Source: a virus
Virus record (IMG/VR): IMGVR_UViG_3300045988_147821
Coordinates: 32,001-96,000 of that record
Direction: 5' to 3' (one strand)
Length of the DNA stretch: 64,000 nt
Below the pieces are notes generated by a model, which was given only the letters and a program-made list of their open reading frames with translations, was not told the DNA's origin and searched no databases. Below are positions 6,848 through 47,757 of the stretch, one piece after another. The position numbers and the translations under genes were made by a program. Within the stretch, counting starts at the first letter, position 1; every line of letters starts with the position of its first letter.

Positions 6848-8890
6848 TTAAACATCAAATTCCTTAGTTCCAACCTTGATATGAATTTTGGATTTTCGTC
6901 TTACCTTTCTTTTCTCTTCTTTCATAGGAGAAGTGACGAACATCCTTAATTTTTCATCCCATTCATCAAACATCGGGTTGTAGTATTGGAGCGAGCAACG
7001 GCAATTACCTGATACACATACCTTATTGTTTCTACGAATAATTAACGTATGATTTCTTTCCAATTCAACATCATATATATATCCCTCATATTCTATGACA
7101 TTTTCCTGTATTCTTCTTTTAAGATTGTACTTATTTTTTAATACATTTATCCATAAAATATCATTCTTAGATATATATACCTTTCCCCTTTTTACATCAT
7201 TATAATACCGTTTACCTGTATTTTTAAAAGAAGGTCTTTCTCCGGTTTTTAAAATCAATTCACCCAAATCATCAGCCAATCTTTTACTAGTTGTTATATA
7301 ATGAACTTGTGGCTTAAATTGATACCCTTTCCACACTTTTCCTTTATGAATAGTACCATCTCCAAGTCTAAATGCTTCTAAAAATAAAGAAATGTTTTCC
7401 GAAGTTGTTTGCTTTATAAAATCAGGAACATATCTTACATCTTGCTTTCCTAAATTATAGAAAAACAAAAGTAATTCAGGTTTACTGCAAGCAGAAATAG
7501 TGATTCTATCTTTATCATTTCTAGCCTTTTCCCCAAACAAAGAAGAAGAACATAACCACATCTTTTCCTTAACCTCTTGCTTTAATTGAATCAATTGGAT
7601 TAATTTTCTATCTTCAACCAATGTTCCATCTGAAAGCCAATAGCCCAAAAATTCACAAAACAACTTAAAATCATACTTTATTCCATCAAACTCAATATAC
7701 TCTAAATCAGTTCCTTTCCATTTAGGTATAGTAACTAAAAAGGTAAAATCTTTAGGAAGATCGCTTTCCTTTACTAACAATATATTTCTACCCCTTCCTT
7801 TATTATACTTATTTGTACCAACATGTACATGATTAGGGGTTGTACAAAGGTTATAATCTCTACTAACTCTTTCTATCATAATACCTTTATATTGTTGGTT
7901 TATATACTTAATTGCTTGCACATATTCACCTTCACCAGAACTAGGATTAACTGACAAAAATAATTCATCACCCTTTAAGTCTTTAAAAAACATAAACCCT
8001 TTGTCAGTAAGAACCTCTGTTTTATCATCATAACAGAAAGGGTGCGTAGCCTGGACAGTAGGAAGCCATTCTCTCTGCCTTCTCCCTACGTTGGTCCCAT
8101 TGGCAAGCAATTCTTTCAGTTTGAAAATTTTGGGCCTTGAACCAAGTCCATTTGTAGTAAAGAAACGTATGCAATATGAGCATGCACCATTGAACACTGT
8201 CTTATATACAAGGGCATCCTCACCATGCAAGTCAAGAATACTAAGTGCAGTTCCTTCCTCAAAGATATTCTGCATCTCTGTTTCCATGATACGAAGCCAG
8301 TCCTTTTCCCATATCTGCGTTCTATGACCTATGTCACTTACAATCTGTTTTATAGTCTGTTTTTTATTGAATACAGCACCATTCATAACAGCTTCCTGAA
8401 TCACCCTGCGTTCAGCTTCTGCCTGTGCATTGTCATATTGGGATGCAACCTCTCCAAGAATAGCTTCTGCCACATCCTTTTTCATCTTATCTCCAAGACC
8501 TTTGAGATAGGTATATGTTTTTGTAGCCGCCACACCAAGCCGCATTTGATCTGTAAGCGTCAATTGGGAAACCTGTTCGGATGATACGAATTTATAAAAG
8601 TCAGCATATCCTAATGATGCAGTCTGTCTTGGTTCAAGAACTCCGGCAAGTCTACCGAAAATCATGGCCTGCTGATATGGTGGGATTCGCTTCATCTCCT
8701 TTTCAAAATCAAAGTTGAACTCTTTAAGGAGTTTCTTGTCTGATTCCGAAATAAACTGTTTCCCCAACACTTTTACGATAAGACGAACAAGACGATAGTC
8801 TATTATTCTGAATATCCTCTTGATTACTCCGTCCTGTTCATAAAAAGGTGGATAAAACCTCAAATCCTTATCTATCCTGTTTTCTGCCAT
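6848..8890 (-). CDS. MuF / SPP1 gp7-like head morphogenesis protein interrupted by an intein
   Basis: The exteins rejoin to CSYC...LPTVQATHPF|CRCSLQYY, which is the C..C ... HPxCRC signature of Mu F-like minor head proteins. The gene lies next to the portal. Confidence 0.75.
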   Translation of the reverse strand: MAENRIDKDLRFYPPFYEQDGVIKRIFRIIDYRLVRLIVKVLGKQFISESDKKLLKEFNFDFEKEMKRIPPYQQAMIFGRLAGVLEPRQTASLGYADFYKFVSSEQVSQLTLTDQMRLGVAATKTYTYLKGLGDKMKKDVAEAILGEVASQYDNAQAEAERRVIQEAVMNGAVFNKKQTIKQIVSDIGHRTQIWEKDWLRIMETEMQNIFEEGTALSILDLHGEDALVYKTVFNGACSYCIRFFTTNGLGSRPKIFKLKELLANGTNVGRRQREWLPTVQATHPFCYDDKTEVLTDKGFMFFKDLKGDELFLSVNPSSGEGEYVQAIKYINQQYKGIMIERVSRDYNLCTTPNHVHVGTNKYNKGRGRNILLVKESDLPKDFTFLVTIPKWKGTDLEYIEFDGIKYDFKLFCEFLGYWLSDGTLVEDRKLIQLIQLKQEVKEKMWLCSSSLFGEKARNDKDRITISACSKPELLLFFYNLGKQDVRYVPDFIKQTTSENISLFLEAFRLGDGTIHKGKVWKGYQFKPQVHYITTSKRLADDLGELILKTGERPSFKNTGKRYYNDVKRGKVYISKNDILWINVLKNKYNLKRRIQENVIEYEGYIYDVELERNHTLIIRRNNKVCVSGNCRCSLQYYNPMFDEWDEKLRMFVTSPMKEEKRKVRRKSKIHIKVGTKEFDV
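7004..8035 (-). mobile_element. class-1 intein with LAGLIDADG homing endonuclease (344 aa, residues 286-629)
   Basis: N-terminal CYDDKTEVLTDKGF, block B TPNH, two LAGLIDADG motifs (LGYWLSDGT, LEAFRLGDGT), C-terminal VCVSGN followed by +1 Cys. Confidence 0.85.
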
Positions 8891-9080: not shown

Positions 9081-10843
9081 TCACCTCCAAACATCTTGTT
9101 GATAACTTCCGTGGCCCTGTCCATGATGGGATTGTCACCATACATGGATTTGTATTTTGCAAATGGATCTTCTTCCTCTGCTGCCACATTGGATGATGGT
9201 TGCTCTTCCTCATTCTCCACACCTTCCACTTCACCTCCGTTCATCTGACCTCCCATGGCAGCAGCGTTATCCTTGTTGATTTTATAATTCATCCATACGG
9301 AATTGAGGATTGTGTCCTTTTCAGGATTGAACGGTCTGCCTGAATATGCTTCAAAAGCATCCTCCAATGAGATCATTCCTGCTTCAAGTTTCTTCTTGTC
9401 GATTTCCACTTTCAATGCTTCATCTTCAAGATCAACGCCTGTAAAAGCAAACTCGAATGATTCATCAAGTTCCGATACAAGATATCTTGTTATGATTTCT
9501 TGTAGGAAGGATAACATGGGTTTAAGACCTTTCTCACGTGAATGCTTTAATCTCTGTCGTTGGCCGTCCTGTCCGAACATCTGTGCGGATTCCTTGAACT
9601 GGAATCCTAGTTCTGAGGGGTCTATACGATAGACAGAACATATCAGCACAATAAGGAATTGGTTCCATAAATTGTACTCCATATCCTTGTTGTTTTTGGT
9701 CAAATCAATCCATTCAACCTGTGATTGTGCCAAAACAGGGATTCTTCCTGCGTTTTGAGGTCCTGCCATCATTTGATACCACATTTGCCTAAACTCGTTC
9801 AAAGTGGTTTGGGAAACATTTTCACCCTTGATATTCAACAGACCTTTGGGGAATACGCCATTCTTGAATGAATTACCATTGGATTGTAAGGACCATAAGA
9901 ACCATGTCACAATCTCATTGAGTGTTTCAAGTTCCGAAACCCCGTATCCGTTACGGTAGACATCGGTTGACTTGTTACGCACCCCGAAACCGAGTTCCCA
10001 CGGGTAATAGACGATTGATTCGCCTGTGACGGGATTTTTGAGAATCTGATTATCCCACACCATACAGTAGCGGGGCAAATATCCCTTAAACCGATATTTC
10101 TCGAACTCCTGCCTGTTCCGTGGGTCAACCGCACCAAGGAAACGTACAAGTGACGCGTCCACCGCCTTGAATCTGTCAAGTTCCCACATCCTGTTTCTTG
10201 TGGTTTCAAACGCAAGCTGGTCAAGTGTCAGCGAATCAAACGAAATCTTTCTTATGAAGTCGGGAAGGGTATCATAGTTATCCCATTTGTCGGTGTTGCC
10301 ACCTCGTTCCAGGAACTCCACGATTTTTTCTACCTTCTTCTTGTCTTTCGATGATAAAGACAAATCTCCCGGATCAAACAAACCTCTTTTCTTTCTGATG
10401 GTATAACCTTCCTTCTGCTCGTCATCGGAGAAGTGCAGGAAGTTCTGTATCTGCTCTATACGTGTGTTTACGATGGCCCTTACAAGATAAATTCCACCCA
10501 TTCTACGTAACGTACTGAATGGAAGAATACCTCTTTGAGCAAGATAATCACGTCCACTATCGTTCCATACCTGCGGATCAAAGAAAACGGATTGAAGTTT
10601 TCCATTATCCGAAGTCTTTGAACCAAGATACAGATTTGCTTTCATCACATCTTCCACATCCCTAGACATCATAGAAGATTGTAATTTTGATTGCAAAAGC
10701 ATGGGAACAGTCTTGCTTAATCTGTCCAGTTCATTGAAATCAAGGGAAGCCAAAGACTTCAACAAGTCAGGCTTCCCATTTTTATATGTATTTTTCCGTT
10801 TTCTACTCATTTCTGCAAAAATATTATGCCGAAGCTCCAGCAA
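9077..10843 (-). CDS. portal protein (putative)
   Basis: 588 aa, immediately upstream of the MuF-like gene, with an acidic C-terminus. An alternative start at 10810 (MSRKRKN) avoids overlap with the upstream ORF. Assigned by synteny and size. Confidence 0.6.
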   Translation of the reverse strand: MLELRHNIFAEMSRKRKNTYKNGKPDLLKSLASLDFNELDRLSKTVPMLLQSKLQSSMMSRDVEDVMKANLYLGSKTSDNGKLQSVFFDPQVWNDSGRDYLAQRGILPFSTLRRMGGIYLVRAIVNTRIEQIQNFLHFSDDEQKEGYTIRKKRGLFDPGDLSLSSKDKKKVEKIVEFLERGGNTDKWDNYDTLPDFIRKISFDSLTLDQLAFETTRNRMWELDRFKAVDASLVRFLGAVDPRNRQEFEKYRFKGYLPRYCMVWDNQILKNPVTGESIVYYPWELGFGVRNKSTDVYRNGYGVSELETLNEIVTWFLWSLQSNGNSFKNGVFPKGLLNIKGENVSQTTLNEFRQMWYQMMAGPQNAGRIPVLAQSQVEWIDLTKNNKDMEYNLWNQFLIVLICSVYRIDPSELGFQFKESAQMFGQDGQRQRLKHSREKGLKPMLSFLQEIITRYLVSELDESFEFAFTGVDLEDEALKVEIDKKKLEAGMISLEDAFEAYSGRPFNPEKDTILNSVWMNYKINKDNAAAMGGQMNGGEVEGVENEEEQPSSNVAAEEEDPFAKYKSMYGDNPIMDRATEVINKMFGGE

Positions 10844-15242: not shown

Positions 15243-15246
15243 AATG

Positions 15247-15924
15247 TTATTTTGCAAGATAACAATCCCGAATCTTAAGCGAACATTTTTGTGATGGACG
15301 TTCAGCTTCAATGAACCAAAATGATGATTCAAGATAATCATCATTACACATGTAAACCATTTCCGTTATCGGATCAACGTTAAAATAAATGTCGCTATCA
15401 TCAAAAAACGTTTCTTCATACAATTCAACGGTATATGTTCCTTCCCGTTCGTCCATAGGATATTTATTGCATTCATTCTTCGAGAAAAATGTCAATGGTT
15501 TACTATCTAAAGACTTTATAGTAGAAGCAAAATCACAAAGTTGATTATAAGAGAAATTTGTTTTTCTTTTGCCGTAAGTCAAAAGATATTCAGCGGCAAC
15601 CAATCTAGTTGCCGCTCCAATTGATAAAATATCAACCATTTTAACGTACCTTGTATTTGCTTTAGGAATAAAATAATCCTTTCCATTTTTAGTCAAACAA
15701 GAATAAGTGGATAAGACAAGAAGATCTTGTCCCTGCCGGAGTAATATAGACCTAAATACTTCCTCATCGAATTTAAATGCAACGATTTTATCATTACAAA
15801 TCTTATTTTGCTTAATATCATAAGTATATATCTGGAAGTCACAAGAAAACTTTACTTCATCGTATCTTCCTTTATAAGGTTTTAAAGTGCTGTCCAAAGG
15901 ATAAGCTACAAATACATTAAACAT
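15247..15924 (-). CDS. hypothetical protein
   Basis: 225-aa ORF. No motif recognised. Confidence 0.5.
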   Translation of the reverse strand: MFNVFVAYPLDSTLKPYKGRYDEVKFSCDFQIYTYDIKQNKICNDKIVAFKFDEEVFRSILLRQGQDLLVLSTYSCLTKNGKDYFIPKANTRYVKMVDILSIGAATRLVAAEYLLTYGKRKTNFSYNQLCDFASTIKSLDSKPLTFFSKNECNKYPMDEREGTYTVELYEETFFDDSDIYFNVDPITEMVYMCNDDYLESSFWFIEAERPSQKCSLKIRDCYLAK

Positions 15925-15935
15925 GGCAATAGGAA

Positions 15936-16295
15936 TTATTCGTTTATTATTTCAGTTTTATTATTTTGATTGCGATACTTTTGAGGAAAACGAAAATACT
16001 GTTTACACACCCAAAACAATTCTTTCATGGGAACAATAGGAGAATCAGGACATCTAAATTCATTTTCCATCGGAGCAACAACAATATGATTAAAACACGC
16101 CCTTACAAAAAAGGAATTGTAGGAATAAACATCCTTGTTGCCTTTTGTGTCGACAAAAAGAACTTTTGGCGAATTAAGACACACATCAATGAACATGATT
16201 GCATCATCCTTGCAATTCATTTTACAGATAACGGTAGAGCATAACGGGAACTTCCCTATGTTTTTGCTCTTTTTGGGTAACTTCTTTTGTTTCAT
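15936..16295 (-). CDS. hypothetical protein
   Basis: 119-aa ORF, first gene after the 16.3-17.1 kb non-coding element. Confidence 0.5.
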   Translation of the reverse strand: MKQKKLPKKSKNIGKFPLCSTVICKMNCKDDAIMFIDVCLNSPKVLFVDTKGNKDVYSYNSFFVRACFNHIVVAPMENEFRCPDSPIVPMKELFWVCKQYFRFPQKYRNQNNKTEIINE

Positions 16296-16320
16296 TTATA
16301 CTCAATTAATGTTTGAAAAT

Positions 16321-16384
16321 TCATTATTTCGGTTATTTTCATTTACTACTTCGGTTATTTCATTCATTATTTCGGTTATTTTAT
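16321..16384 (-). promoter_or_regulatory. three direct repeats of AAATAACCGAA(A/G)TA(A/G)T at about 21-22 bp spacing, directly upstream of ORF 15936..16295
   Basis: The plus strand reads tcattatttcggttatttt / catttactacttcggttattt / cattcattatttcggttatttt. Confidence 0.7.
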
Positions 16385-16551
16385 CGTTTTTAGAGCTTAC
16401 AAGCACCTTAAACCCAATTTATGTAATGAAAAAAATGAAAATAATGTAAAAATTTTTCGTTTCGCCCGTATCAAAAACAACTTTATATCTATTCCCTTTT
16501 ATAACAATTGATTGTTGAAATCTATGATATTCCAATATCATTCAAAAACTA

Positions 16552-17060
16552 ATTGTTACATTCCAAGAACCCGGTTGTTGAAAGCACAGACTATATCCCC
16601 ATAGGGGAACTGTATTAATCTATTATAAGTCATTGAAATATAATAGGATACAGTGCCTGTGCTTTCAACTTTAACCGGATAATGGTAAGAACGATAGATA
16701 TAAAGTTGTTTTGTTGTCAACCGAATATTGTTACATTCCTGTCACCCGTATTTTATAGTTGGGATAAGACTGTTTTTGAAAAACCGTGCATCGCTCGCAC
16801 ATCTGAAACCTGCTTATCCTTTCGAGTCTTTGGTCCTGTTTCAAAAGAACCCACCTGGCATCTCGATTTCGCACTACCAACCCTACCGTCAGGTTATCCC
16901 GTGGAGTAAGGTATTTCTCAATCTTATGCGCCACCGTTAAGTCTTATCCGTCCACATAAGAAATAGACTTTCTTTTCCGTGTGCGATTCTATATGACCTC
17001 GATAGGGTAATACACCTCATTTCTGCAATAATATTACCTCGGAATACCACGCTATAAAAA
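16552..17060. ncRNA. candidate large structured RNA or structured DNA element (family unknown)
   Basis: About 500 bp without a credible ORF and visibly richer in G+C than its surroundings. A nested helix pairs 16571-16589 with 16657-16678 and encloses hairpins CCCC-ATA-GGGG (16597-16607) and CTATTATA/TATAATAG (16620-16646). Long-range pairing joins GGATAAGAC (16762-16770) with GTCTTATCC (16941-16949). GGTAATA pairs with TATTACC (17006-17038). Confidence 0.3.
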
Positions 17061-17100
17061 AGAAAGTCTGTAATGAATGCCCCATCATATCATTACAGAC
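17055..17100 (-). terminator. strong hairpin, intrinsic terminator on the minus strand
   Basis: GTCTGTAATGA-13 nt-TCATTACAGAC (17067-17100) is followed on the minus strand by TTTCTTTTTTAT. Confidence 0.6.
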
Positions 17101-17173
17101 AATATAGAAAAGTTCTATCGAACCATCTTTTACTATGTTGTTTGTATTGACTATGGGGCGTCAATTACTGATG

Positions 17174-17234
17174 CAAAGATACAGTGGATTATGTGATATA
17201 GCCAAAAATCAATTGAATTTTTTAGTTATATTTG
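17174..17234. promoter_or_regulatory. divergent promoter pair
   Basis: Minus-strand TATCTTTG at 17174..17181, with CAAA (= TTTG) about 19 nt upstream. Plus-strand TATATTTG at 17227..17234, about 35 nt before the ATG at 17270. Confidence 0.5.
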
Positions 17235-17269
17235 CAATACAGATAGATTTCATTAAAATACATCCTATT

Positions 17270-17755
17270 ATGAAAGTCATATTCAATTCAAAAATCGCAA
17301 AGGTCATTATTCCGTTCCACTCTGCGATACTTCTGTTCTTTTGGTTGCTGTGCAAAAAGAGTGCACAGCATTACAAGCAATCGTTCTTCGCACACGAGCA
17401 TTGTCATTCCCTGCAATGGCAGGAATGTATGTACACAGGCTTCCTGATTTCATTCATAATGTTTATTCTCGGACTGGGATTCGATACCATGATATACGGT
17501 TGCGTAATATCCGTAGTGTTATCCTATATTCTATACGGGTTGAACTATATAGGAAACCTTGTTTATTTGCTCTGTAAGAAAGGATCAAGGGAGATACTGC
17601 ATACTGCATACCGTATGCTGTCATTCGAGCGTGAAGCACGTTATTTTGAGTTTACGGACGGTTCATGGGAACCCGACAGGAACAACATCGCTCCACATTT
17701 GAAAAGAAAACCTTTCGGATGGATAAAATTTATAGGGAGAAGTTTCAGAGATTGA
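17270..17755 (+). CDS. membrane-embedded putative zinc metallopeptidase
   Basis: HEHCH (HExxH) motif between hydrophobic helices. The start was moved to MKVIFNS (17270), downstream of the promoter box. The ORF-track start at 17135 would lie upstream of the promoter. Confidence 0.5.
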   Translation: MKVIFNSKIAKVIIPFHSAILLFFWLLCKKSAQHYKQSFFAHEHCHSLQWQECMYTGFLISFIMFILGLGFDTMIYGCVISVVLSYILYGLNYIGNLVYLLCKKGSREILHTAYRMLSFEREARYFEFTDGSWEPDRNNIAPHLKRKPFGWIKFIGRSFRD

Positions 17756-17766
17756 AATTTAATCCC

Positions 17767-17983
17767 TATATTTGCTCCTGCACTTAAAAATTTGGGTTTT
17801 GTAACATAAGCATTTTAAACACTCTTCTTTTTGAAGAAGTTGAAGGTATTTGATACTCGGTGTGTTGTGAAACAGAACGTCAGCCATTTTTCAGTTAGTT
17901 AAACTTATTAGTTATTAGAGGATCTGGATTGATCGAGAATGGTAAGGGGCTTTCGGTAATTTCCCCCTTACCATTTCTTTTTC
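17767..17983 (+). ncRNA. candidate small RNA unit (promoter box to terminator, no ORF)
   Basis: TATATTTG at 17767..17774, about 160 nt with only one late ATG, then a strong terminator at 17941..17983. Confidence 0.3.
17941..17983 (+). terminator. intrinsic terminator
   Basis: GGTAAGGGG-14 nt-CCCCTTACC followed by ATTTCTTTTTC. Located between convergent genes. Confidence 0.75.
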
Positions 17984-17985
17984 TC

Positions 17986-19518: not shown

Positions 19519-19688
19519 AACGTTTTCTGGCCACATTGTTCATATTGGCGGTATCGTTCATACTGATGTCTATCCTGTTCATGCCGGAAGAAATTCCTGA
19601 TGTTGATAAAAACATAAAAGAGAATTTTGACTATTCAAATGATAATTGTAACTTTGCCACCAAAACTTTAAACAATATTTTAAAATGA
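19515..19688 (+). CDS. small membrane-anchored protein (57 aa, below the ORF-track cutoff)
   Basis: MKRFLATLFILAVSFILMSILF.... ATGA overlaps with both neighbouring genes. Confidence 0.45.
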   Translation: MKRFLATLFILAVSFILMSILFMPEEIPDVDKNIKENFDYSNDNCNFATKTLNNILK

Positions 19689-20023
19689 ACAAGATAAAAC
19701 AGCTATTGAGATGCCGGGGATTGAAGGCGAAGGATATGGCGGAAGCGTTGCAGCTTTCCGAAACAAGGATGAGCCAGATATCGAACGGTGCTTCCACAAC
19801 GGAAGAAACGAAAAGACGGATATGTGAATGGATAGGGGAACCGTTATGGATAGTGTTCCCGGAAGATTACCCCGACATGGCGGGGATGGTGGAGAAGGGA
19901 AATTGTGACAAGGTATCCATCACAAGTACGGGCAACAACCCCTATTTCTTTACGGCTACGGCCAAGATAGACGGGAAGCCCGTATATCTGGAAGGTGTCG
20001 CCCATAAAGTTGAGAAGGCATGA
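19685..20023 (+). CDS. XRE/Cro-type helix-turn-helix regulator
   Basis: LKAKDMAEALQLSETRMSQISNG is a typical HTH_XRE core. Confidence 0.65.
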   Translation: MNKIKQLLRCRGLKAKDMAEALQLSETRMSQISNGASTTEETKRRICEWIGEPLWIVFPEDYPDMAGMVEKGNCDKVSITSTGNNPYFFTATAKIDGKPVYLEGVAHKVEKA

Positions 20024-22084: not shown

Positions 22085-22127
22085 ATGCAGGATATGTCGT
22101 GATGATATGATCCTGCATTGTTTTTGT
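22085..22127 (+). terminator. intrinsic terminator of the plus-strand block
   Basis: ATGCAGGAT-16 nt-ATCCTGCAT followed by TGTTTTTG. Confidence 0.65.
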
Positions 22128-22131
22128 ATGT

Positions 22132-22165
22132 ATAACCGAAATAATGCCATTTCGGTTATTTTTAT
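22132..22165 (+). terminator. second hairpin built from the ACCGAAAT motif, followed by a T-run
   Basis: ATAACCGAAAT-aatgcc-ATTTCGGTTAT followed by TTTTAT. Confidence 0.55.
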
Positions 22166-22931
22166 GAAAAACACGTCCACGCTATCATGGGAACAATGAT
22201 TGTGGCAAAAAGAATAGGGTGAGCATTACACCCACCCTATGATACGGAAATCGAAAATAATAGTACCAAAATAACTACTGAAAGAAAATATGACTACCGC
22301 AAATATAGGACATCCATCCCATATATGCAACACCCGTGGGGTATATCGCCCGTTTCATTTCCCGGAAAAATTTTGGAATAGGAATGGTAAGCCAAAAGGT
22401 TTCGGCAGGAAGGAAGAGAGGACATCACCCATGGGGGTAAAATGCGGTTTTTGTTTTTCCGAAAAATTTTAAGGTCCAAAAAGGTATTTCGGGGAATATA
22501 GGGAGAGAGGGTGTTTGTTGCTAAGCACGACACCCCGACTTCCTCGTTTCATAGTGTTTTGCTTCTCCAGGCATTACACCCGCATATACCCTATTTTAAG
22601 CCCTTACACACAAGGATCACCCGTTTTCCATACTGTTACCCATCCATTGCCACATTGTTCCCGTAACATCATTAAAACGGCTCGTACCCTATGTGTGTCG
22701 CCCTATCGGGAATGCGGTTTTTGCGTGTCCTGTGGTAGGGTGTGCCTTTCCCGATTATCATATAGTAAATTATTATAACAGGGTCAAAAACAGGGGTGTT
22801 TTCATTAAGTTACTGATATTCAGACGATTAAGCCAAAAAATCGTTGCATCCGCCCTTATATGCAAATCGAAGCATTGATAGTAATAATATAGGACAAATC
22901 ATTGTTTTGTGATGCGTGTGTACACGCGTGT

Positions 22932-22960
22932 GTGCTGCATATACGAATGTATTGCAGCAC
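22932..22960. repeat. 12-bp stem hairpin or palindrome in the gene desert
   Basis: GTGCTGCATATAC-gaat-GTATTGCAGCAC, flanked by GTGTACAC/ACGCGT palindromes and GTACAAT x2.7 (22984-23002). Confidence 0.7.
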
Positions 22961-23185
22961 GAAAGAATGTATATGTATATTAGGTACAATGTACAATGTA
23001 CAAAAATCGAATATCAGTAACCAACTAGATTATATACACAATTAGGCGGTTTTACGCGTATATGCAGACCATACCAGGAACGGCAATAACATGGAATAAT
23101 TGCCTGGTGATCGTGGAAAGGTGGGAATAGGATAAAAGGGGTAATTAGATGTTTTGGTTACTCCCAATGGCTTCCACGCTAGGCA

Positions 23186-23564: not shown

Positions 23565-23594
23565 TGCTAAAAACCGAAATAGTGTTATTTCGGT
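23565..23594 (-). terminator. terminator of the long minus-strand gene block, built from the ACCGAAATA palindrome
   Basis: On the minus strand, ACCGAAATA-acac-TATTTCGGT is followed by TTTTTAGC. Confidence 0.6.
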
Positions 23595-23756
23595 AAATTC
23601 ATTCAAAATGTGTTTCACATGGTATTGTAGACGTGATTTTTGCACAAAAATAACAGGTACAAGGTGTTTATGTTTGTCTATTCCTTGTACCTGTTTTCAG
23701 ATAGTTTTTATAAATCATTGTATCATGATTATATTATTGCTATTTTGATTGATTGA

Positions 23757-24805: not shown

Positions 24806-24960
24806 TATTTTTTAATTGTTCGTTAATCGTTTTTTTCAATCACATTGCAAAGGTAAGGATAAAAACCGAAATAACAACTATTTCGGGAAATTATTTTTGT
24901 TAATAAATGTTTAATGATAGGTAAAACGTTGAAATTGAGTGAGTTATGAACTATCAAAAA
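24806..24960 (-). repeat. about 155-bp intergenic repeat, copy A (terminator hairpin plus promoter plus leader)
   Basis: Near-identical to 26835..26975 and 28015..28169. Contains CCGAAATA-gttgt-TATTTCGG and a minus-strand TACCTTTG box (24848..24855). Confidence 0.9.
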
Positions 24961-26834: not shown

Positions 26835-26975
26835 GTATTTTTAATTGTTCGTTAATCGTTTTTTCAATCACATTGCAAAGGTAAGGATAAAAACCGAAAT
26901 AACAACTATTTCGGGAAATTATTTTTGTTAATAAATGTTTAATGATAGGTAAAACGTTGAAATTGAGTGAGTTAT
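26835..26975 (-). repeat. intergenic repeat, copy B
   Basis: Same sequence as copies A and C. TACCTTTG box at 26876..26883. Confidence 0.9.
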
Positions 26976-28014: not shown

Positions 28015-28169
28015 GTGTTTTTTAATTGTTCGTTAATCGTTTTTTCAATCACATTGCAAAGGTAAGGATAAAAACCGAAATAACAACTATTTCGGGAAAT
28101 TATTTTTGTTAATAAATGTTTAATGATAGGTAAAACGTTGAAATTGAGTGAGTTATGAACTATCAAAAA
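28015..28169 (-). repeat. intergenic repeat, copy C
   Basis: Same sequence as copies A and B. TACCTTTG box at 28057..28064. Confidence 0.9.
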
Positions 28170-34549: not shown

Positions 34550-34981
34550 TTACATTCCTTTCTTGGCTTCTTCCACAAGTTCACGTACTTCCGTATTGAA
34601 CACGTCACCATATACCTTTGCAAGATGTGTGGCGGTTTTCATACATTTTTCAGCAATACTTGTCGTTGTATCCCCTGACTTGTCGTTCTTCTCCGCTTCC
34701 TCTATTTCGTCAAGATGCTTGGATACTAGCATTGAATAGAGAGGGAAAAGTTTTTGATCGTGCATCAACACCTGCTGGTTTACTGCCGCCAGCTTGATGC
34801 CGCTTCCCAGTCCGTCACGGAATCCGGCTTCCGCATCGAATGATACAGTGCCACCTTTGGACTGTTTCCATTTCTGAATGATTTCGTTGAAGAACTTTTC
34901 TTCGGGATTCTGTTGCTGTTGCTGACCGCCATTCTGTTGCATGGCTGCCTGTGGATTAAATTCCTGTTGCATGTTGTTCAA
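34550..34981 (-). CDS. hypothetical protein with Gln-rich N-terminus
   Basis: 143-aa ORF behind the TACCTTTG box at 35020..35027. Confidence 0.55.
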   Translation of the reverse strand: MNNMQQEFNPQAAMQQNGGQQQQQNPEEKFFNEIIQKWKQSKGGTVSFDAEAGFRDGLGSGIKLAAVNQQVLMHDQKLFPLYSMLVSKHLDEIEEAEKNDKSGDTTTSIAEKCMKTATHLAKVYGDVFNTEVRELVEEAKKGM

Positions 34982-35384
34982 ATTTTTATTGGTTAATAAT
35001 TCGTTGCGTTATATTGTCACAAAGGTAGCTTTTCCATTTCATATATACAACAATGGGAGATTGAAAACCAATCCCCCATCATCGTCTATAAAACAGAGGA
35101 CTTTCACCTCACGTCACCCTTCAATGACGGCATTGTGATTAAACTAGAATTTATGTTGATGTTAAGATAAAGATTATCAAAGTAAAAGAAGTACATGTTT
35201 CACAACATCCCTTCTATTGAACGTAACACATTACTAAAACATTCGATTTGCAAATGTTTGCATTCGTTTCTATATGTCACATACCGTAAACGAACGTACT
35301 AAACGAACAATTATTATTAAACTCATTTATGAAATAACAATAAACAAATTTTGAAATGTATATTATTCCTCTCTTGGAACGCTG

Positions 35385-43187: not shown

Positions 43188-45226
43188 TCAAATTTTACAT
43201 TAGCAATTCCATTATCCTTCGTAACCACGATACTCCGTATATTGTCACGAACACGACTTATCTGTGTGGTAATCAGACAGGGCTGTTTCAGGAACTCCAA
43301 CGAACGGATAATATTCTCTATTCCCATCGGATCGGAAGCATCCAGCACTTCATCCACATATAGAAAGTGAAGTCCTCCCCACGGATTGGTAGTATTAATC
43401 ATGGATTGTACCGCAAGAATCATGGCTATTTCCGCTCTTGCACGCTCTCCACCCGAATAATACCAATATGTTTCCATCTCATCACGGAAAATATAGGGTG
43501 TCAGTTCCTCTTTCATCTTCCCTTTGGAATCAAGTTTGAACGCTTCTATTATGATTCTCAAATCAGAATCCATGGCATCCAATGTATCGTTCGCTTCCGC
43601 CTGAATATTCTTTATCTGCTCCACAGCAAGATACATCTTGAACTCCTTGAAACGCGCATACCATCTTTCGGTATTTTCACGTTCAACATTCAATGCAAAT
43701 ATATCATTTTTAATTTTTTCAATCAGTCTTTCCTCTTGGTTTATATTCTCAATTATGGGTTTTTGAAGGTCAGCCAGATTATCAAGCGGCTTCTCTCTCA
43801 AATCATCCAATTCCTGTACGTGACGTTTGATTGAATCATTGTACACATCAATATCCTTGTTGTGGTTTTCAATCTGCATGATCATTCTTTCTATCACACT
43901 GTCGGCTGAATCATGTTCACGTTTCCAATAGGAAAGATTCTGTTCTTTCTGTGAGATTTTATCCTCTATTGTCTTGAATCTTGTCTTTGCATTGTTCAAA
44001 TCAGTTCTTATCTCTGAAATTGCAGTAGAATATTCGGAAAGAATGGAATCGTATTCGGAAATTGACGAAATGATCTTGTCCATCTTTTCCGAATATTCGT
44101 TTATGGATTTCAATACCTCTTTCTTTCTCTTTTCCGTTTCCTTCAATGTGGTTCCTTCTTCCAATAGGAACCTATGGCCGCATTCAGGACAGATTATTGC
44201 ACCTTCAAGAGTTGTATTAAGACGTGTAAGCATTGACTTGTATTTGGCAATTTGGGATTCTATCTTGTACTTATCATCAGTCTTTCCCGACTTCTCCGAT
44301 TTAACTCCGTCAACTTCCTTTTGAATCTCATCGGCTATCTCCTTCTGTGTTTCAACAAATGCGGACGCTTCTTCAAGTTTATTTCTTTCATTAATAAGTT
44401 CTGATTCAGCGTTTTTTATGTTTTCGTTTAAGGATAGCTTCAACGTTTTCTTATCTTCTATCGCCTGCTTTAGTTCCTCTATTTTTATTTGGGATAATTC
44501 TATCTTCTTTTTATCCGACAGAATCCTGTTTTCTATTAGGAATAATTCCTGTTCACGCTGTTCTTTTAGATGATCTACGGACATATTGTCAAGTTGTTCG
44601 CTGTAAACTTCCATCTTACTTTCGGATGCAACAATCTTGTTTTCGAGAGAACGGATTTCCATTTCCAATTTCCTTACCTTGCCGTCAATAATCTCTTTTG
44701 TCTTGTCTATGTCATTGAAATTGATAAAACGGCTTATCAACGCCAATTTATCCGTATTGGATGAAGTAAAGAATGACTTATAATTTTCCTTGGATATGAT
44801 GTAATAGGTCTTTGCATCTTCGGCCGTTATACCCAACCATGCGGATATTATCTTGTTCCCCTCATTGATTGTACCATAAGGTTTCTCCACTCCATTGAAT
44901 GTAATGGATAGAGTTGCCGAACCCTTGATAGGAATGGTTCTTCTTACAATCATTTCCACATTTCTTGCAGGACATACTATTGACACCTCAACTTCCGCCT
45001 TGTCCGTTCCACGTCTTACCAGCTTCCTGTCCAGATTCTTTCTTAGGTTGTCACCGTAAATCGCATAGAACAGGGCATGAAGTATGGCTGATTTTCCGGC
45101 ACCATTGGATTGCTGCCCTTCATCCGTATTGTTTATCCCTATGATTGCCATAGGGATATTTTTAAAGTCAATGGTAGCTTCTTCTATTGAACAGAAGTTC
45201 TTTATATACAAACTAGTTATTCTCAT
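43184..45226 (-). CDS. sbcC: SbcC/Rad50-like ATPase
   Basis: Walker A NGAGKSAIL, long coiled coil with CPECGH zinc hook, signature YYSGGERA, Walker B FLYVDEVLD. Confidence 0.85.
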   Translation of the reverse strand: MRITSLYIKNFCSIEEATIDFKNIPMAIIGINNTDEGQQSNGAGKSAILHALFYAIYGDNLRKNLDRKLVRRGTDKAEVEVSIVCPARNVEMIVRRTIPIKGSATLSITFNGVEKPYGTINEGNKIISAWLGITAEDAKTYYIISKENYKSFFTSSNTDKLALISRFINFNDIDKTKEIIDGKVRKLEMEIRSLENKIVASESKMEVYSEQLDNMSVDHLKEQREQELFLIENRILSDKKKIELSQIKIEELKQAIEDKKTLKLSLNENIKNAESELINERNKLEEASAFVETQKEIADEIQKEVDGVKSEKSGKTDDKYKIESQIAKYKSMLTRLNTTLEGAIICPECGHRFLLEEGTTLKETEKRKKEVLKSINEYSEKMDKIISSISEYDSILSEYSTAISEIRTDLNNAKTRFKTIEDKISQKEQNLSYWKREHDSADSVIERMIMQIENHNKDIDVYNDSIKRHVQELDDLREKPLDNLADLQKPIIENINQEERLIEKIKNDIFALNVERENTERWYARFKEFKMYLAVEQIKNIQAEANDTLDAMDSDLRIIIEAFKLDSKGKMKEELTPYIFRDEMETYWYYSGGERARAEIAMILAVQSMINTTNPWGGLHFLYVDEVLDASDPMGIENIIRSLEFLKQPCLITTQISRVRDNIRSIVVTKDNGIANVKFE

Positions 45227-46709
45227 TTTCTTCGGTATTTTTATCGGGTTCCTTATTCAGTTCTTCTTTCGCTTTTTTGATTACTGCTTCCCCTATTTCG
45301 ATTCTCAATGATTCATCTTCCTCCAGGAATTTACGGGTATTCTTCTCTCCCTGTCCTATACGCTGATCACCGTAATAGAAGAAAGCACCTTTCTTTTTCA
45401 GAATGCCATAATCAAGACCCAGGTCTATTATCTCCTGCACCTTGTCAATGCCTTTTCCGAATCGGATAACAAACTCACATTTCTTGAACGGTGGTGCAAT
45501 CTTGTTTTTCTTCACCTTTACCCTTGTAAGGTTTCCCGTTATCTCATCTCCATCCTTTTCCGAACCGATACGACTGAACTCCAACCGTTGTGACGCATAG
45601 AATTTCAATGCCTGTCCTCCGGGTGTCTTGGTGGAGTTTCCTCCGAATCCGAATCCTCCTATGGTGTCACGTGTCTGATTGATACACAATAGGATGTTGT
45701 TGTTACGCTTGATTATGTTTTTCAGAATATTCAACTGTGAGGACATAAGCCTTGCGACAAGGGCCACTTTCTGATCTCCCGCTTCACCCTGTGCCTGTGC
45801 AGTAGGTGTAAGTCCTGCAACCGAATCAAGAACGACAAGACCTATTTCCTGTTCCTCACACATGGTACGGATGATTTCAAGTGCTTCTTCCGCACTGTCA
45901 GGCTGTGACAGGATGAATTTTTCGGCAGACATATCCACACCCAATTTCTCTGCATAGAACGGGTCAAGTGCCTGTTCCACATCCACATATCCCACTGCCT
46001 TTCCTGTTTTCTGAACTTCTGCAACCAAATGAAGTGCAGCCGTTGTTTTTCCACAATTGTGTACGACAAAATCATCAGCTATGAAATTATGCCATTTCCC
46101 ACCGCATTTCACGTCATACACTTTCCCATCTCCTACGGGTTCTATGGATTCAACACGGTCTACCTCTATATATTTCAGACGAAGTTTTGTGTCATGCTTG
46201 TAAACGAATAGAGGGTTTCCCTTGGTAAATTCCTTCAATTCCTTATACTGTCCGTCACCCACATAGAATTTATGATCATCCGTGGCCGTTATCACATGGC
46301 CTTTCTTTGTCACAAGTTCATAGACAGGGCGTTTACCCACATATATCACATCTTCCACAGGGTGCCACTTTATTTCACCGAAAACTTCCTCTATCCCCAT
46401 GATGTAAATGTCAAAATTACGTCTTTGGTCACAGAAGCATCCGTGGAGCACCTTCAATGACTTGTTATAATATCCCATTACAGCATTGTCACCATGATGC
46501 ACGTATTTCACTTTTACACGTGTACGGCCGTCAAGACATGATTCCCCACCGAACACCTCCACGATTCTTCCTTTGGGATAACCGCCACCAAGAACTGCAT
46601 CAAGGGAATATGAACCACTGTGTATGCAATCTACCGCTACATGGTTGCCGGAAATAGCTTCCTTTCCAAATCTCTTTTCTATTGTTGCAATCAAATCCTT
46701 TATAGCCAT
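45213..46709 (-). CDS. recA: RecA recombinase interrupted by a mini-intein in the P-loop
   Basis: The exteins read RIVEVFGGES|CGKTTAALHLVAEVQKTGKAVGYVDVEQALDPFYAEKLGVD...SQPDSAEEALEI...VVLDSVAGL. Start taken at MAIKDLI (46709), just after the sbcD stop. Confidence 0.9.
   Translation of the reverse strand: MAIKDLIATIEKRFGKEAISGNHVAVDCIHSGSYSLDAVLGGGYPKGRIVEVFGGESCLDGRTRVKVKYVHHGDNAVMGYYNKSLKVLHGCFCDQRRNFDIYIMGIEEVFGEIKWHPVEDVIYVGKRPVYELVTKKGHVITATDDHKFYVGDGQYKELKEFTKGNPLFVYKHDTKLRLKYIEVDRVESIEPVGDGKVYDVKCGGKWHNFIADDFVVHNCGKTTAALHLVAEVQKTGKAVGYVDVEQALDPFYAEKLGVDMSAEKFILSQPDSAEEALEIIRTMCEEQEIGLVVLDSVAGLTPTAQAQGEAGDQKVALVARLMSSQLNILKNIIKRNNNILLCINQTRDTIGGFGFGGNSTKTPGGQALKFYASQRLEFSRIGSEKDGDEITGNLTRVKVKKNKIAPPFKKCEFVIRFGKGIDKVQEIIDLGLDYGILKKKGAFFYYGDQRIGQGEKNTRKFLEEDESLRIEIGEAVIKKAKEELNKEPDKNTEENENN
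46056..46538 (-). mobile_element. mini-intein (161 aa, no endonuclease domain) in the RecA Walker A motif
   Basis: CLDGRTRVKV (block A), TDDH (block B), YDVKCGGKWHNFIADDFVVHN followed by +1 Cys. Confidence 0.85.
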
Positions 46710-46713
46710 AATA

Positions 46714-47757
46714 TCAATCTCCCAATGCTTTTTGTAATATATCACTTGCTTCGTCTGCATTATATTTCTTTTCCTTGCAGAATGAAGCAAATCTGTCCAT
46801 AATATCCGTTTTTGTCAAAACCTTTATTTCGTTAACCTTATCTTCCGCATCTATAACTTCCTCAACTTCCTTTATCTTGGGCTTTACATCAATCCCCATT
46901 GCGGAATACTTTGTCCTATCAAATGCGGAAACTTTGTCCTGTGTTCCTGTGACCTCTATTCTGATACGATCATTGTCGTTTCTTTTGGAAGCATGAAATA
47001 GGGTTATCTGTTCCTCCACTTCATCTGGTGACATGGTATCCAAGTCCACGGTTATTTTCTTGAATGATGAACGCTCGGATTTTATAAGTTCTGTTGTACC
47101 ATCACTATACAGGATATAAAACCCTTTTTTATCATCTTCACCAAAGTTGTTCTGACACAATGATCCAAGATGGATTATTGATTGTGTGACATATTGCATA
47201 TTGTGATAGTGGCCACTTAGGACAAATTTATACTTTTTCAATACAGTAGGGGTCAACTTGCTGTCCACCTTGCTTCCATCATTGTTGCAGCTTCCGTCAA
47301 AAGCCATGTGGGTAAACAAGATATCAGCTTTCTTATCCTTTATATTCTCAAATTCATCCAGCCATTCCTTATCAGAAAGAAACGGCATGAAAGCCATTTT
47401 CAGTCCTCCTATTTCCTTGATTACCCCATCACGTAACAGAACAAATGACGGATGGTATTTGTACGGGTCAAGAAACGAATTTTTTGACGTGTAATCGGTT
47501 TTATCATGGTTTCCAGGAATGACAAACATCTTCTGCTTGTTGTTATGATAGGAATCGAGTATGTTTCCAAACGTATTCAACACACATTCCTTTTGACTTA
47601 TACGGGAATCAAATATATCCCCCAACCATATATGCGTATCTACTTCCATATCCTTTGCAAGTTCAAGTTCGTCTTGCAGAAGGTTGTTTATAAGTTCACA
47701 GTTATCTGGCTTCAAGTGCCAATCGGTACTTATGATTGCTATCGGTTTTACTTCCAT
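46714..47757 (-). CDS. sbcD: SbcD/Mre11-like nuclease
   Basis: Calcineurin-like phosphoesterase motifs STDWH, GDIFD, GNHD, THMAF and SGHYH. Confidence 0.85.
   Translation of the reverse strand: MEVKPIAIISTDWHLKPDNCELINNLLQDELELAKDMEVDTHIWLGDIFDSRISQKECVLNTFGNILDSYHNNKQKMFVIPGNHDKTDYTSKNSFLDPYKYHPSFVLLRDGVIKEIGGLKMAFMPFLSDKEWLDEFENIKDKKADILFTHMAFDGSCNNDGSKVDSKLTPTVLKKYKFVLSGHYHNMQYVTQSIIHLGSLCQNNFGEDDKKGFYILYSDGTTELIKSERSSFKKITVDLDTMSPDEVEEQITLFHASKRNDNDRIRIEVTGTQDKVSAFDRTKYSAMGIDVKPKIKEVEEVIDAEDKVNEIKVLTKTDIMDRFASFCKEKKYNADEASDILQKALGD

What the first reader, a model, noticed from the sequence alone, without database searches (positions are those of the whole stretch)
16552..17060. About 500-bp ORF-free, G+C-enriched, helix-rich element: candidate large structured RNA
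The element lies between the head operon and the opposite-strand island. It has:
- a 19-bp interrupted helix (16571-16589 with 16657-16678) enclosing two hairpins (16597-16607; 16620-16646), giving a three-way-junction-like unit;
- a 13-nt direct repeat ATTGTTACATTCC (16552-16564 and 16727-16739);
- a 9-bp long-range complement GGATAAGAC / GTCTTATCC (16762-16770 and 16941-16949);
- a further helix at 17006-17038.

The only ORFs are short, overlapping and on both strands. Large ornate RNAs of unknown function are known from phages and prophages. I cannot assign this one to any family by eye.
Basis: partly seen in the sequence, partly recalled or inferred. Interest (0 to 1): 0.65.

Follow-up and report, generated by a model that had tools for sequence, protein, structure and literature searches.

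The report
Hairpin-rich untranslated region of a swappable phage cassette
The flagged 500 bases are not one large folded RNA but the middle of a ~930-base untranslated control region, inside a gene cassette that strains of one uncultured gut phage swap, containing two exceptionally stable hairpin modules separated by an unstructured, non-coding spacer.

Summary
The listed helices and the 13-nt repeat are real, but the picture of one ~500-nt structured RNA does not hold.

- **Where the structure is.** It is confined to three modules:
- S1 (16474-16712), a 239-nt nested palindrome closed by a perfect 19-bp stem, z about -10 on either strand and as DNA.
  - S2 (16965-17069).
- **The G+C-richer core (16713-16964).** It folds no better than shuffles, has no coding signal, and carries a 1-nt deletion in some strains.
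- **Database searches.** Rfam gives nothing. No relatives exist outside one phage species (44 contigs, 33 haplotypes).
- **Covariation.** Only S3 shows it: three double compensatory changes plus a GC>GU>AU series.
- **S3 context.** A consensus Bacteroidota promoter precedes S3 and a U-tract follows it, both on the minus strand.
- **Cassette.** The region lies in a 2-kb cassette (15244-17226). Sibling phages with 91-99% identical flanks carry an unrelated cassette instead.

Best reading (confidence about 0.4): a composite minus-strand leader and control region for the cassette genes. A DNA-level role (origin or cruciform) and a non-functional relic remain open. Interest is modest.

The parts
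15244..17226 (.). Strain-variable cassette: 225-aa and 119-aa ORFan genes (minus strand) plus the ~930-nt untranslated region.
   Evidence: L002-L005 match the window at 91-99% identity up to 15243 and from 17227 onward. Between those points they carry an unrelated 1.72-kb segment (379-aa ORF plus 580 nt non-coding). The junctions fall at the ATG of the 131-aa gene and at the -7 box of the 161-aa gene promoter.
17174..17206 (-). Consensus Bacteroidota-type promoter: TTTG, 21-nt spacer, TATCTTTG.
   Evidence: It is the only exact -7 box on the minus strand between 15983 and 17181, and it has a -33 TTTG at the right spacing. The boxes do not vary in 33 haplotypes. Activity is inferred.
17070..17168 (-). 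S3: 99-nt imperfect hairpin. An alternative 11-bp hairpin (17066-17076 / 17090-17100) abuts the U-tract.
   Evidence: z = -4.9 for the 121-nt minus-strand RNA and -7.8 on the plus strand in a 120-nt window. In helix 17079-17085 / 17153-17159, three pairs change on both sides and one shows GC > GU > AU. Shuffles give 0.2 +/- 0.5 such pairs, and 1 of 500 reach the observed value.
17054..17065 (-). U-tract (UUUCUUUUUUAU) following S3 or the short hairpin on the minus strand only.
   Evidence: Read from the sequence. It resembles the hairpin plus UUUCUUUUUCU after the 161-aa gene. It does not vary in 33 haplotypes.
16965..17069 (.). S2: 105-nt module closed by the perfect 12-bp stem AGACTTTCTTTT / AAAAGAAAGTCT.
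   Evidence: The window 16960-17079 has z = -4.4 (+) and -2.5 (-). The stems are almost invariant, so they carry no covariation information.
17016..17036 (-). 21-nt copy of the junction between the 497-aa gene stop and the portal gene start: TAATATT(A/T)TTGCAGAAATGAG.
   Evidence: Its only other occurrence is at 10806-10826. Shuffles give 0.02 matches on average.
16713..16964 (.). G+C-normal (42-45%), purine-rich-on-minus spacer ('core'). No structure signal and no coding signal.
   Evidence: Five haplotypes carry a 1-nt deletion at 16778. The SNP-poor run is not significant against the cassette background.
16474..16712 (.). S1: nested palindrome. The outer stem is a perfect 19-bp pair (16474-16492 / 16694-16712). 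It encloses hairpin A (16502-16558) and the three-way junction B (16567-16682).
   Evidence: z = -10.5 (-), -9.5 (+) and -10.5 as DNA. It is the only perfect long inverted repeat in the window. It has the same orientation in all 44 contigs. Five pairs vary on one side, none on both sides, and there is no strand bias.
16552..16573 (+). Direct repeat, copy 1 (ATTGTTACATTCC...).
   Evidence: L076 carries the same C>T at offset 11 in both copies (16563 and 16738). Offset 3 varies in both copies.
16727..16748 (+). Direct repeat, copy 2.
16383..16473 (.). A+T-rich spacer (about 25% G+C).
16319..16382 (-). Three tandem 21-22-nt repeats (AAATAACCGAAATAATGAAT), 24 nt upstream of the 119-aa gene start. 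They are direct copies of the phage's operator half-site.
   Evidence: Copy number is 1-3 among strains. The same half-site forms palindromes ACCGAAAT-N6-8-ATTTCGG at 22135, 23573, 24865, 26893 and 28074, the last three between divergent TAnnTTTG boxes. The motif is found 17 times against 5.5 expected.

Best explanation
The flagged span is the central part of a composite, untranslated control region (16296-17226). That region belongs to a horizontally exchanged accessory cassette of an uncultured, 'Gratiaviridae'-like gut Bacteroidota phage.

Proposed working, read on the minus strand:
1. **Start.** Host RNA polymerase starts at the consensus promoter at 17206-17174.
2. **S3.** The first ~100 nt fold into the S3 hairpin. 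With the following U-tract, S3 either ends a short ~110-nt RNA or acts as a promoter-proximal attenuator. The long hairpin competes with an 11-bp terminator hairpin that abuts the U-tract.
3. **Read-through.** Read-through transcripts carry S2 and an unstructured spacer that is possibly a decayed gene. They then carry the 239-nt S1 structure, which would serve as a second barrier, a processing site or a stabilising element.
4. **Operator repeats.** The tandem operator half-sites next to the 119-aa gene tie the cassette genes to the phage's own regulator.

**Shown:** the architecture, the stability of S1 and S3, selection or correction for pairing in S3, the non-coding nature of the region, and cassette exchange.

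**Inferred:** transcription, its strand, termination or read-through, and any role for S1.
For: - **Cassette exchange with exact junctions:**
- **Promoter:** the only consensus minus-strand promoter in the whole region sits at its far end, directly before S3.
- **Terminator-like geometry:** the hairpin-plus-U-tract exists on the minus strand only. It resembles the terminator after the neighbouring 161-aa gene.
- **Covariation:** population-level covariation is found in S3.
- **Stability:** S1 hairpin B and S3 are the two most stable 120-nt windows of the 64-kb window on the plus strand. Hairpin B is also the top window on the minus strand, where S3 is not among the top 14.
- **Composition:** base skews in the core match the sense strand of minus-strand genes.
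- **Regulator link:** the repeats next to the first gene are half-sites of a motif that recurs as palindromes in five other intergenic sites, three of them between divergent TAnnTTTG promoter boxes. A weak Cro/C1-type HTH protein is encoded nearby.
- **Not coding:**
Against: - There are no transcription data.
- S1 and S3 fold about as well on the plus strand and as DNA.
- One-sided substitutions do not favour the minus strand.
- An ~870-nt leader is unusually long.
- The outer stem of S1 is a perfect 19-bp inverted repeat. That looks more like a DNA-level repeat than an evolved RNA helix.
- Compensatory changes in a quasi-palindrome can arise by replication template switching, without selection on RNA.
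- The alternative cassette in sibling phages has no comparable architecture.
Confidence: 0.4

Rival explanations
1. DNA-level element: a replication origin or another cruciform or single-strand-DNA site. Direct iterons bind an initiator, the A+T-rich stretch unwinds, and the large palindromes extrude.
For: - The order iterons (16319-16382), 25% G+C spacer, large palindrome matches iteron-type origins such as lambda ori (own knowledge).
- S1 folds as DNA with z = -10.5.
- There is no strand bias in G.U-type pairs.
- The outer inverted repeat is perfect and invariant.
- The region sits at a switch of gene orientation.
- The adjacent 131-aa gene has a weak match to replication-initiator winged-helix families (phrog_270, E = 0.0015).
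Against: - The iteron motif is not origin-specific. It forms palindromic operators at five other intergenic sites, three of them between promoter boxes.
- Iteron number varies from 1 to 3 among strains.
- Sibling phages with the same replication genes lack the whole cassette.
- No initiator has been identified.
Confidence: 0.2
2. Largely non-functional relic: a decayed gene (the core) plus quasi-palindromic duplications. These hitch-hike with a recently spread cassette, and pairing in the hairpins is restored by template-switch correction rather than by selection.
For: - The core has coding-like G+C and skew but no coding signal.
- The core has no structure signal.
- The core tolerates an indel.
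- The whole cassette has low diversity. The SNP-free run in the core is not significant by my max-gap estimate, p about 0.1.
- The 225-aa cassette gene is truncated in several strains.
- A 21-nt stray copy of the portal start junction lies in S2.
Against: - The two most stable local structures of a 64-kb window lie within 500 nt of each other.
- The promoter, hairpin and U-tract are arranged consistently.
- All long stems are invariant in 33 haplotypes.
Confidence: 0.2
3. One reading: one large (>= 500 nt) structured non-coding RNA of a new family.
For: - The region is ORF-free and contains very stable modules.
- S3 shows covariation.
- The minus-strand MFE pairs 16941-16949 with 16762-16770 and so closes the core.
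Against: - About 250 nt in the centre fold no better than shuffles.
- The long-range complement is at chance level.
- There is no Rfam match.
- A terminator-like site lies between S3 and the rest.
- There are no homologues, and no covariation outside S3.
Confidence: 0.07
4. Invertible promoter (inverton): the 19-bp inverted repeats are recombinase sites that flip the 201-bp segment upstream of the cassette genes.
For: A perfect 19-bp inverted repeat flanks 201 bp upstream of an operon in a Bacteroidota phage. This geometry is typical of Bacteroides invertons (own knowledge; inverted repeats plus invertase described in PMC13501310).
Against: - All 44 contigs from independent samples have the same orientation.
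- There is no consensus promoter inside the segment.
- No recombinase was found among the window proteins scanned.
- The interior is itself a nested palindrome.
Confidence: 0.04
5. One or more small proteins are encoded in the core (67 aa on the minus strand, or 70-75 aa on the plus strand).
For: - Three frames are open over about 200 nt.
- A gene caller called an 85-aa ORF here in some strains.
Against: - The ORFs score negative with no frame discrimination.
- No family or homologue was found.
- The 85-aa call arises from a 1-nt deletion that frameshifts all three ORFs.
Confidence: 0.03

Closest known systems
Lambda late-operon leader (pR' promoter, short 6S RNA, tR' terminator, Q antitermination)
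   Same: A constitutive-looking promoter is followed within about 110 nt by a hairpin plus U-tract. This sits upstream of an operon that runs into lysis (holin) and head genes.
   Different: No Q-like or other antiterminator has been identified. About 750 nt and a 239-nt palindrome lie between the terminator and the first gene. The host is Bacteroidota. Nothing has been shown experimentally.
Iteron-type replication origins (lambda ori, plasmid oriV)
   Same: Tandem 21-22-bp direct repeats, an adjacent A+T-rich stretch, then a palindrome.
   Different: The repeat motif doubles as a palindromic operator at five other intergenic sites, three of them between promoter boxes. Copy number varies from 1 to 3. 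Sibling phages lack the locus.
Bacteroides invertible promoters (invertons)
   Same: A perfect inverted repeat of about 19 bp flanks about 200 bp upstream of an operon.
   Different: A single orientation is seen in 44 contigs. There is no internal consensus promoter and no invertase was found.
Large ornate phage-associated RNAs (GOLLD, ROOL, HEARO; Rfam)
   Same: A long ORF-free stretch in a phage with multi-stem junctions.
   Different: No covariance-model match at E <= 10. Half of the span is unstructured. It is restricted to one species.
Phage RNase III processing hairpins (T7 early and late mRNAs)
   Same: Long, nearly perfect stems of about 19-40 bp in untranslated parts of phage operons.
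   Different: This is an analogy only. No cleavage data exist, and RNase III use in Bacteroidota phages is unknown to me.

Membership tests
Any Rfam family (incl. GOLLD, ROOL, HEARO, riboswitches, ribozymes, RAGATH) | Covariance-model score at or above the family's gathering threshold | tested here: not met
   No hits at gathering score over the whole window. For 16200-17400 at E <= 10 there are only chance-level hits: mir-1284 35.7 bits against 80, Betaproteobacteria-1 24.5 against 49.4, RAGATH-23 19.7 against 92.6.
Structured non-coding RNA (generic) | Folding energy beyond dinucleotide shuffles over the claimed span | tested here: inconclusive
   Met for S1 (z about -10) and for S3 (z -4.9 to -7.8). 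Not met for 16713-17060 (z -1.1 / -0.3).
Structured non-coding RNA (generic) | Compensatory base-pair changes among relatives | tested here: inconclusive
   S3 helix 4 has 3 pairs changed on both sides plus a GC/GU/AU series; 1 of 500 shuffles reach this. S1 and S2 have none. Only within-species variation is available, and template switching is an alternative cause.
Structured non-coding RNA (generic) | Transcription of a defined strand | not testable with these tools
   No expression data. G.U versus A.C asymmetry is balanced between the strands.
Inverton (invertible promoter) | Inverted repeats flanking a short segment | tested here: met
   A perfect 19-bp inverted repeat with 201 nt between the arms.
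Inverton (invertible promoter) | Both orientations present in populations | tested here: not met
   A single collinear alignment in all 43 other contigs (44 with the window). Assemblies only; raw reads were not examined.
Inverton (invertible promoter) | Promoter inside the invertible segment and a recombinase | tested here: not met
   No exact TAnnTTTG box inside the segment. No recombinase domain in the proteins scanned. The window covers only about 60% of the genome.
Intrinsic terminator / attenuator (S3) | Stable hairpin immediately followed by a U-tract on the transcribed strand, downstream of a promoter | tested here: met
   The 11-bp hairpin (-16.2 kcal/mol) abuts UUUCUUUUUUAU. The long hairpin is -33.6 kcal/mol. 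The promoter box is at 17181-17174. Actual termination was not tested.
Iteron-type replication origin | Direct iterons plus an A+T-rich region, bound by a dedicated initiator | tested here: inconclusive
   Repeats and an A+T-rich stretch are present. The motif is shared with operators elsewhere. No initiator has been identified.
Protein-coding gene | Open frame with the genome's coding statistics, homologues, and intolerance of frameshifts | tested here: not met
   A 1-nt deletion at 16778 is present in 5 haplotypes.
MITE / small mobile element (S1) | Terminal inverted repeats with further copies elsewhere | tested here: not met
   The arm sequence occurs as a pair only in this phage. Other hits in 185,579 genomes and in IMG/VR are single and scattered.
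Type III toxin-antitoxin (ToxIN-like) | Tandem ~36-nt RNA repeats plus a terminator upstream of a ToxN-family toxin | tested here: not met
   The repeats are 21-22 nt and are operator half-sites. The 119-aa and 225-aa proteins match no PADLOC model.
DGR template repeat | A near-copy (variable repeat) in a target gene and a reverse transcriptase | tested here: not met
   No second copy of the core in the window. No RT domain among the proteins scanned.

The most novel reading that the evidence does not exclude
S3, S2, the core and S1 are parts of one or two phage-specific regulatory RNAs on the minus strand that control a swappable accessory cassette. The hypervariable but always re-paired GCCCCAT/ATGGGGC stem of S3 acts as a specificity determinant, in the way antisense-RNA immunity determinants differ between heteroimmune phages. 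The concerted changes in the two ATTGTTACATTCC repeats mark a second recognition element.
Probability: 0.1. Interest if true: 0.6.

Novelty: new member of a known kind. Interest (0 to 1): 0.3.

Why it matters
- If the leader model is right, this would be an example of promoter-proximal attenuation and long structured leaders in phages of gut Bacteroidota. Their transcription control is, as far as I know, little studied.
- It would also be a case of an accessory cassette wired into the phage's own operator network.
- The S3 stem is a small natural experiment. Its 14 nt hold 11 variable sites, yet pairing is nearly always restored. That pattern could separate selection on RNA from template-switch correction.
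- As it stands, the element is confined to one phage species and has no demonstrated function, so its general significance is limited.

Tried and rejected
- **Rfam:** gathering and E <= 10 modes gave nothing. No tRNA or tmRNA.
- **GenBank phages:** blastn of the region found no match.
- **Exact-word and degenerate scans:** IMG/VR, metagenome contigs and 185,579 genomes returned only the same phage species, plus a chance PP2C-phosphatase hit, L029.
- **Flanking proteins:** the 119-aa and 225-aa proteins have no homologues outside the species. They have no Pfam, PHROG, PADLOC or NCBIfam family.
- **Structure prediction:** the AlphaFold single-sequence model of the 225-aa protein was unusable (pLDDT 33.6).
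- **Stop-codon reassignment:** rejected, because all three stop types occur in every frame.
- **Pseudogene of the alternative cassette, or of another window gene:** no tblastx or blastn similarity apart from a 21-nt portal-junction copy.
- **'Ultra-conserved core':** the first sample showed 1 SNP in 354 nt. The whole cassette is SNP-poor, and more haplotypes added substitutions and an indel, so the signal is not robust.
- **Strand assignment from G.U pairs:** balanced, so uninformative.
- **Retron, DGR, type III TA, MITE, CRISPR-like repeats:** considered and not supported (see the membership tests).

Full report
**Context**

- The window is from an uncultured Bacteroidota phage.
  - Its gene set includes a DnaE-type Pol III alpha, a Toprim primase, SNF2 helicase, an SbcCD-like pair and an NAD-dependent ligase. 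It also has an intein-containing RecA and an intein-containing large terminase, a portal, an SU10-type capsid protein, a BACON-domain protein and a holin.
  - The Bacteroidota -7 promoter motif TAnnTTTG is enriched: 104 matches against 68 expected.
  - The replication gene set fits the candidate family 'Gratiaviridae' described by Benler et al. 2021 (PMC8008677).
  - The closest cultured relatives are only about 33-38% identical in DnaE: Tenacibaculum, Cellulophaga phiST-like and Bacteroides DAC phages.
- The flagged span lies in a 974-nt gap without long ORFs (16296-17269).
  - On the left is a minus-strand operon (119-aa, 225-aa and 131-aa genes, holin, then head genes).
  - On the right is a plus-strand 161-aa gene.
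  - Gene callers placed no gene in the gap in most contigs. The exceptions are an 85-aa ORF call in some strains and upstream-extended versions of the 161-aa gene.

**Check of the observation**

- Real and non-random:
  - A perfect 13-bp inverted repeat occurs in 0.3% of shuffles, and a perfect 13-nt direct repeat in 0.7%.
- At chance level: the 9-10-bp long-range complement. 38% of shuffles contain one.
- Sliding 120-nt windows show that structure is confined to three places:
  - 16570-16689: z = -10.4 / -8.0.
  - 16960-17079: z = -4.4 / -2.5.
  - 17050-17169: z = -7.8 / -4.6.
- From 16690 to 16960, |z| stays below 1.5, apart from one window at -2.1 (16870-16989, minus strand) that runs past 16960 into S2. 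The stretch 16713-17060 as a whole gives z = -1.1 / -0.3.
- The G+C enrichment is real relative to the 25-32% spacers, but it only equals the coding average.

- **S1 (16474-16712).**
  - The three-way junction is the inner part of a 239-nt nested palindrome.
  - A perfect 19-bp stem (16474-16492 / 16694-16712) closes it. A second hairpin (16502-16558) sits inside.
  - z = -10.5 (-), -9.5 (+), and -10.5 with DNA parameters.
  - It is the only perfect long inverted repeat in the window.
- **S2 (16965-17069).** It is closed by a perfect 12-bp stem.
- **S3 (17070-17168).** It is a 99-nt hairpin.
- S1 hairpin B and S3 are the two most stable 120-nt windows of the whole 64 kb on the plus strand. Hairpin B is also the top window on the minus strand.

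**Coding**

- No frame is rescued by reassigning a stop codon.
- A 3-periodic Markov model was trained on the window's long genes.
  - It scores all small ORFs negative, without frame discrimination.
  - It separates the reading frame in twelve control genes, including genes of 57-85 aa.
- No family or homologue was found.
- Five of 33 haplotypes carry a 1-nt deletion at 16778 that frameshifts all three ~70-aa ORFs. That deletion is what created the 85-aa gene call in those strains.

**Relatives**

- The element is absent from GenBank phages and from 185,579 representative genomes.
- It is absent from IMG/VR and from metagenome contigs, except in the same phage species.
- I collected 44 contigs (33 haplotypes, 95-99.8% identical) through the flanking 119-aa protein and its variants.

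**Cassette**

- Four IMG/VR contigs (L002-L005) are 91-99% identical to the window up to 15243 and from 17227 onward.
- Between those points they carry an unrelated 1.72-kb segment: a 379-aa ORF plus 580 nt of non-coding sequence. This segment is 98-99% identical among the four, even where the flanks are only 91-93% identical to the window.
- The junctions lie at the ATG of the 131-aa gene and at the -7 box of the 161-aa gene promoter.
- The whole untranslated region therefore belongs to an exchangeable accessory cassette with ORFan genes.
- The cassette is SNP-poor overall.
- The 225-aa gene is truncated in several strains.

**Population variation**

- *Invariant stems.* The long stems of S1 and S2 do not vary, so they say nothing about covariation. 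This covers the outer 19 bp and the 13-bp stem of S1, and the 12-bp stem of S2.
- *S1.* Five pairs vary on one side. Three keep pairing on either strand, so there is no strand preference.
- *S3.* The segment GCCCCAT/ATGGGGC (17079-17085 / 17153-17159) is a hot spot: 11 of its 14 positions vary. Pairing is nevertheless restored:
  - 17082/17156: CG > UA.
  - 17083/17155: CG > UA.
  - 17085/17153: UA > CG.
  - 17079/17159: GC (14 haplotypes) > GU (13) > AU (6).
  - Three pairs change on both sides, against 0.2 +/- 0.5 in shuffles. One of 500 shuffles reaches this, and slid controls give 0-1.
- This shows that the S3 hairpin forms and matters, in RNA or in DNA. Template-switch correction in a quasi-palindrome is a possible non-selective cause.
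- *Orientation.* The segment flanked by the inverted repeat has the same orientation in all 44 contigs.

**Signals on the minus strand**

- The only consensus promoter in the region is TTTG-N21-TATCTTTG at 17206-17174, directly before S3.
- S3 is followed, on this strand only, by UUUCUUUUUUAU (17065-17054).
- An alternative 11-bp hairpin (-16.2 kcal/mol) abuts that tract. It resembles the hairpin plus U-tract after the 161-aa gene (-17.2 kcal/mol).
- The long hairpin (-33.6 kcal/mol) and the short one are mutually exclusive. The covarying helix belongs to the long form.
- The three 21-22-nt repeats lie 24 nt upstream of the 119-aa start, and their number varies from 1 to 3 among strains. They are direct copies of a half-site.
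  - Elsewhere that half-site forms palindromes ACCGAAAT-N6-8-ATTTCGG in five intergenic sites. Three of these lie between divergent promoter boxes.
  - The motif occurs 17 times against 5.5 expected.
- A weak Cro/C1-type HTH protein is encoded at 19685-20023.

**Interpretation**

- The evidence favours a composite control region over a single large RNA.
- My preferred model (confidence about 0.4) is a minus-strand leader with these elements in order:
  1. The promoter.
  2. S3, acting as a short RNA or as an attenuator.
  3. S2.
  4. An unstructured spacer that is perhaps a decayed gene. It has coding-like G+C and a purine skew on the minus strand, and a stray 21-nt copy of the portal start junction lies in the adjacent S2.
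  5. S1, acting as a barrier, a processing site or a stabiliser.
  6. The operator half-sites, and then the cassette genes.
- Transcription, strand and mechanism are all inferred.
- Rival readings:
  - A DNA-level role, such as an origin or cruciform (about 0.2). The iteron, A+T-rich, palindrome order fits, but the repeat motif is shared with operators elsewhere, and sibling phages lack the locus.
  - A largely non-functional relic (about 0.2).
  - An inverton (about 0.04).
  - Small proteins (about 0.03).

**Novelty and score**

- Nothing here matches a described RNA family.
- The individual components are ordinary kinds of phage regulatory sequence: a promoter, a terminator-like hairpin, operator repeats and a palindrome.
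- The element is confined to one species, and its function is unproven.
- The S3 hot spot with restored pairing, and the concerted change of the two direct-repeat copies, are the most unusual details.
- Interest: 0.3.

Noticed in passing
window 15244-17226 vs L002-L005 4239-5959: Two alternative accessory cassettes occupy the same slot between the 131-aa gene and the 161-aa gene promoter in otherwise 91-99% identical phages. The alternative cassette (379-aa ORF, no family hit) is 98-99% identical across backbones that differ by up to 8%. That implies horizontal exchange.
   Followed up: partly
window 22121-22170, 23568-23599, 24860-24885, 26888-26913, 28069-28094: A palindromic motif ACCGAAAT-N6-8-ATTTCGG(T/G) recurs in five intergenic regions; the last three sites lie between divergent TAnnTTTG promoter boxes. 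It is a likely operator of a phage regulator. The last three sites sit in near-identical ~95-nt repeats. These repeats may explain why many assemblies break near 23.3-24.7 kb.
   Followed up: partly
window 16319-16382: The 21-22-nt tandem repeat upstream of the 119-aa gene varies between 1, 2 and 3 copies among strains.
   Followed up: yes
window 17079-17085 and 17153-17159; also 16597-16607: The CCCCAT/ATGGGG stems are substitution and indel hot spots (11 of 14 positions in S3; 16600, 16601del, 16603ins and 16606 in the small S1 hairpin). The surrounding sequence is nearly invariant. The cause is unknown: a mutational hot spot, a restriction or methylation target (a CCATC site lies at 17082-17086), or diversifying selection.
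   Followed up: partly
window 16552-16573 and 16727-16748: The two direct-repeat copies change in concert. L076 has C>T at the same offset in both copies (16563, 16738). Offset 3 is G/A polymorphic in both copies (16555, 16730), and one haplotype appears to have the states swapped. This suggests gene conversion or a shared binding partner.
   Followed up: partly
window 17016-17036 and 10806-10826 (minus strand): A 21-nt sequence spanning the stop codon of the 497-aa gene and the likely ATG of the portal gene is duplicated (20 of 21 identical) inside S2, in the loop of the 17006-17038 hairpin. Shuffles give 0.02 matches on average.
   Followed up: partly
window 15247-15924 (225-aa gene) in L023, L055, L062, L075-L077, L079: The 225-aa cassette gene is truncated or split (174, 134, 69, or 37+193 aa) in several strains, so it appears dispensable.
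   Followed up: no
window 45213-46790, 59350-62175, 6848-8890: Intein or homing-endonuclease domains lie inside RecA and the large terminase. A LAGLIDADG domain lies in a 680-aa protein next to the portal gene.
   Followed up: no
window 22861-23010 (+), 34981-35160 (-), 43981-44130 (+): These are the next most stable 120-nt windows in the window-wide folding scan (residual z -3.3 to -4.4). They were not examined further.
   Followed up: no
window 17941-17985: A G+C-rich hairpin (GGTAAGGGG...CCCCCTTACC) followed by UUUCUUUUUCU is a likely plus-strand terminator of the 161-aa gene. It lies between that gene and the convergent 224-aa methyltransferase-like gene, running up to that gene's 3' end at 17986.
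   Followed up: partly
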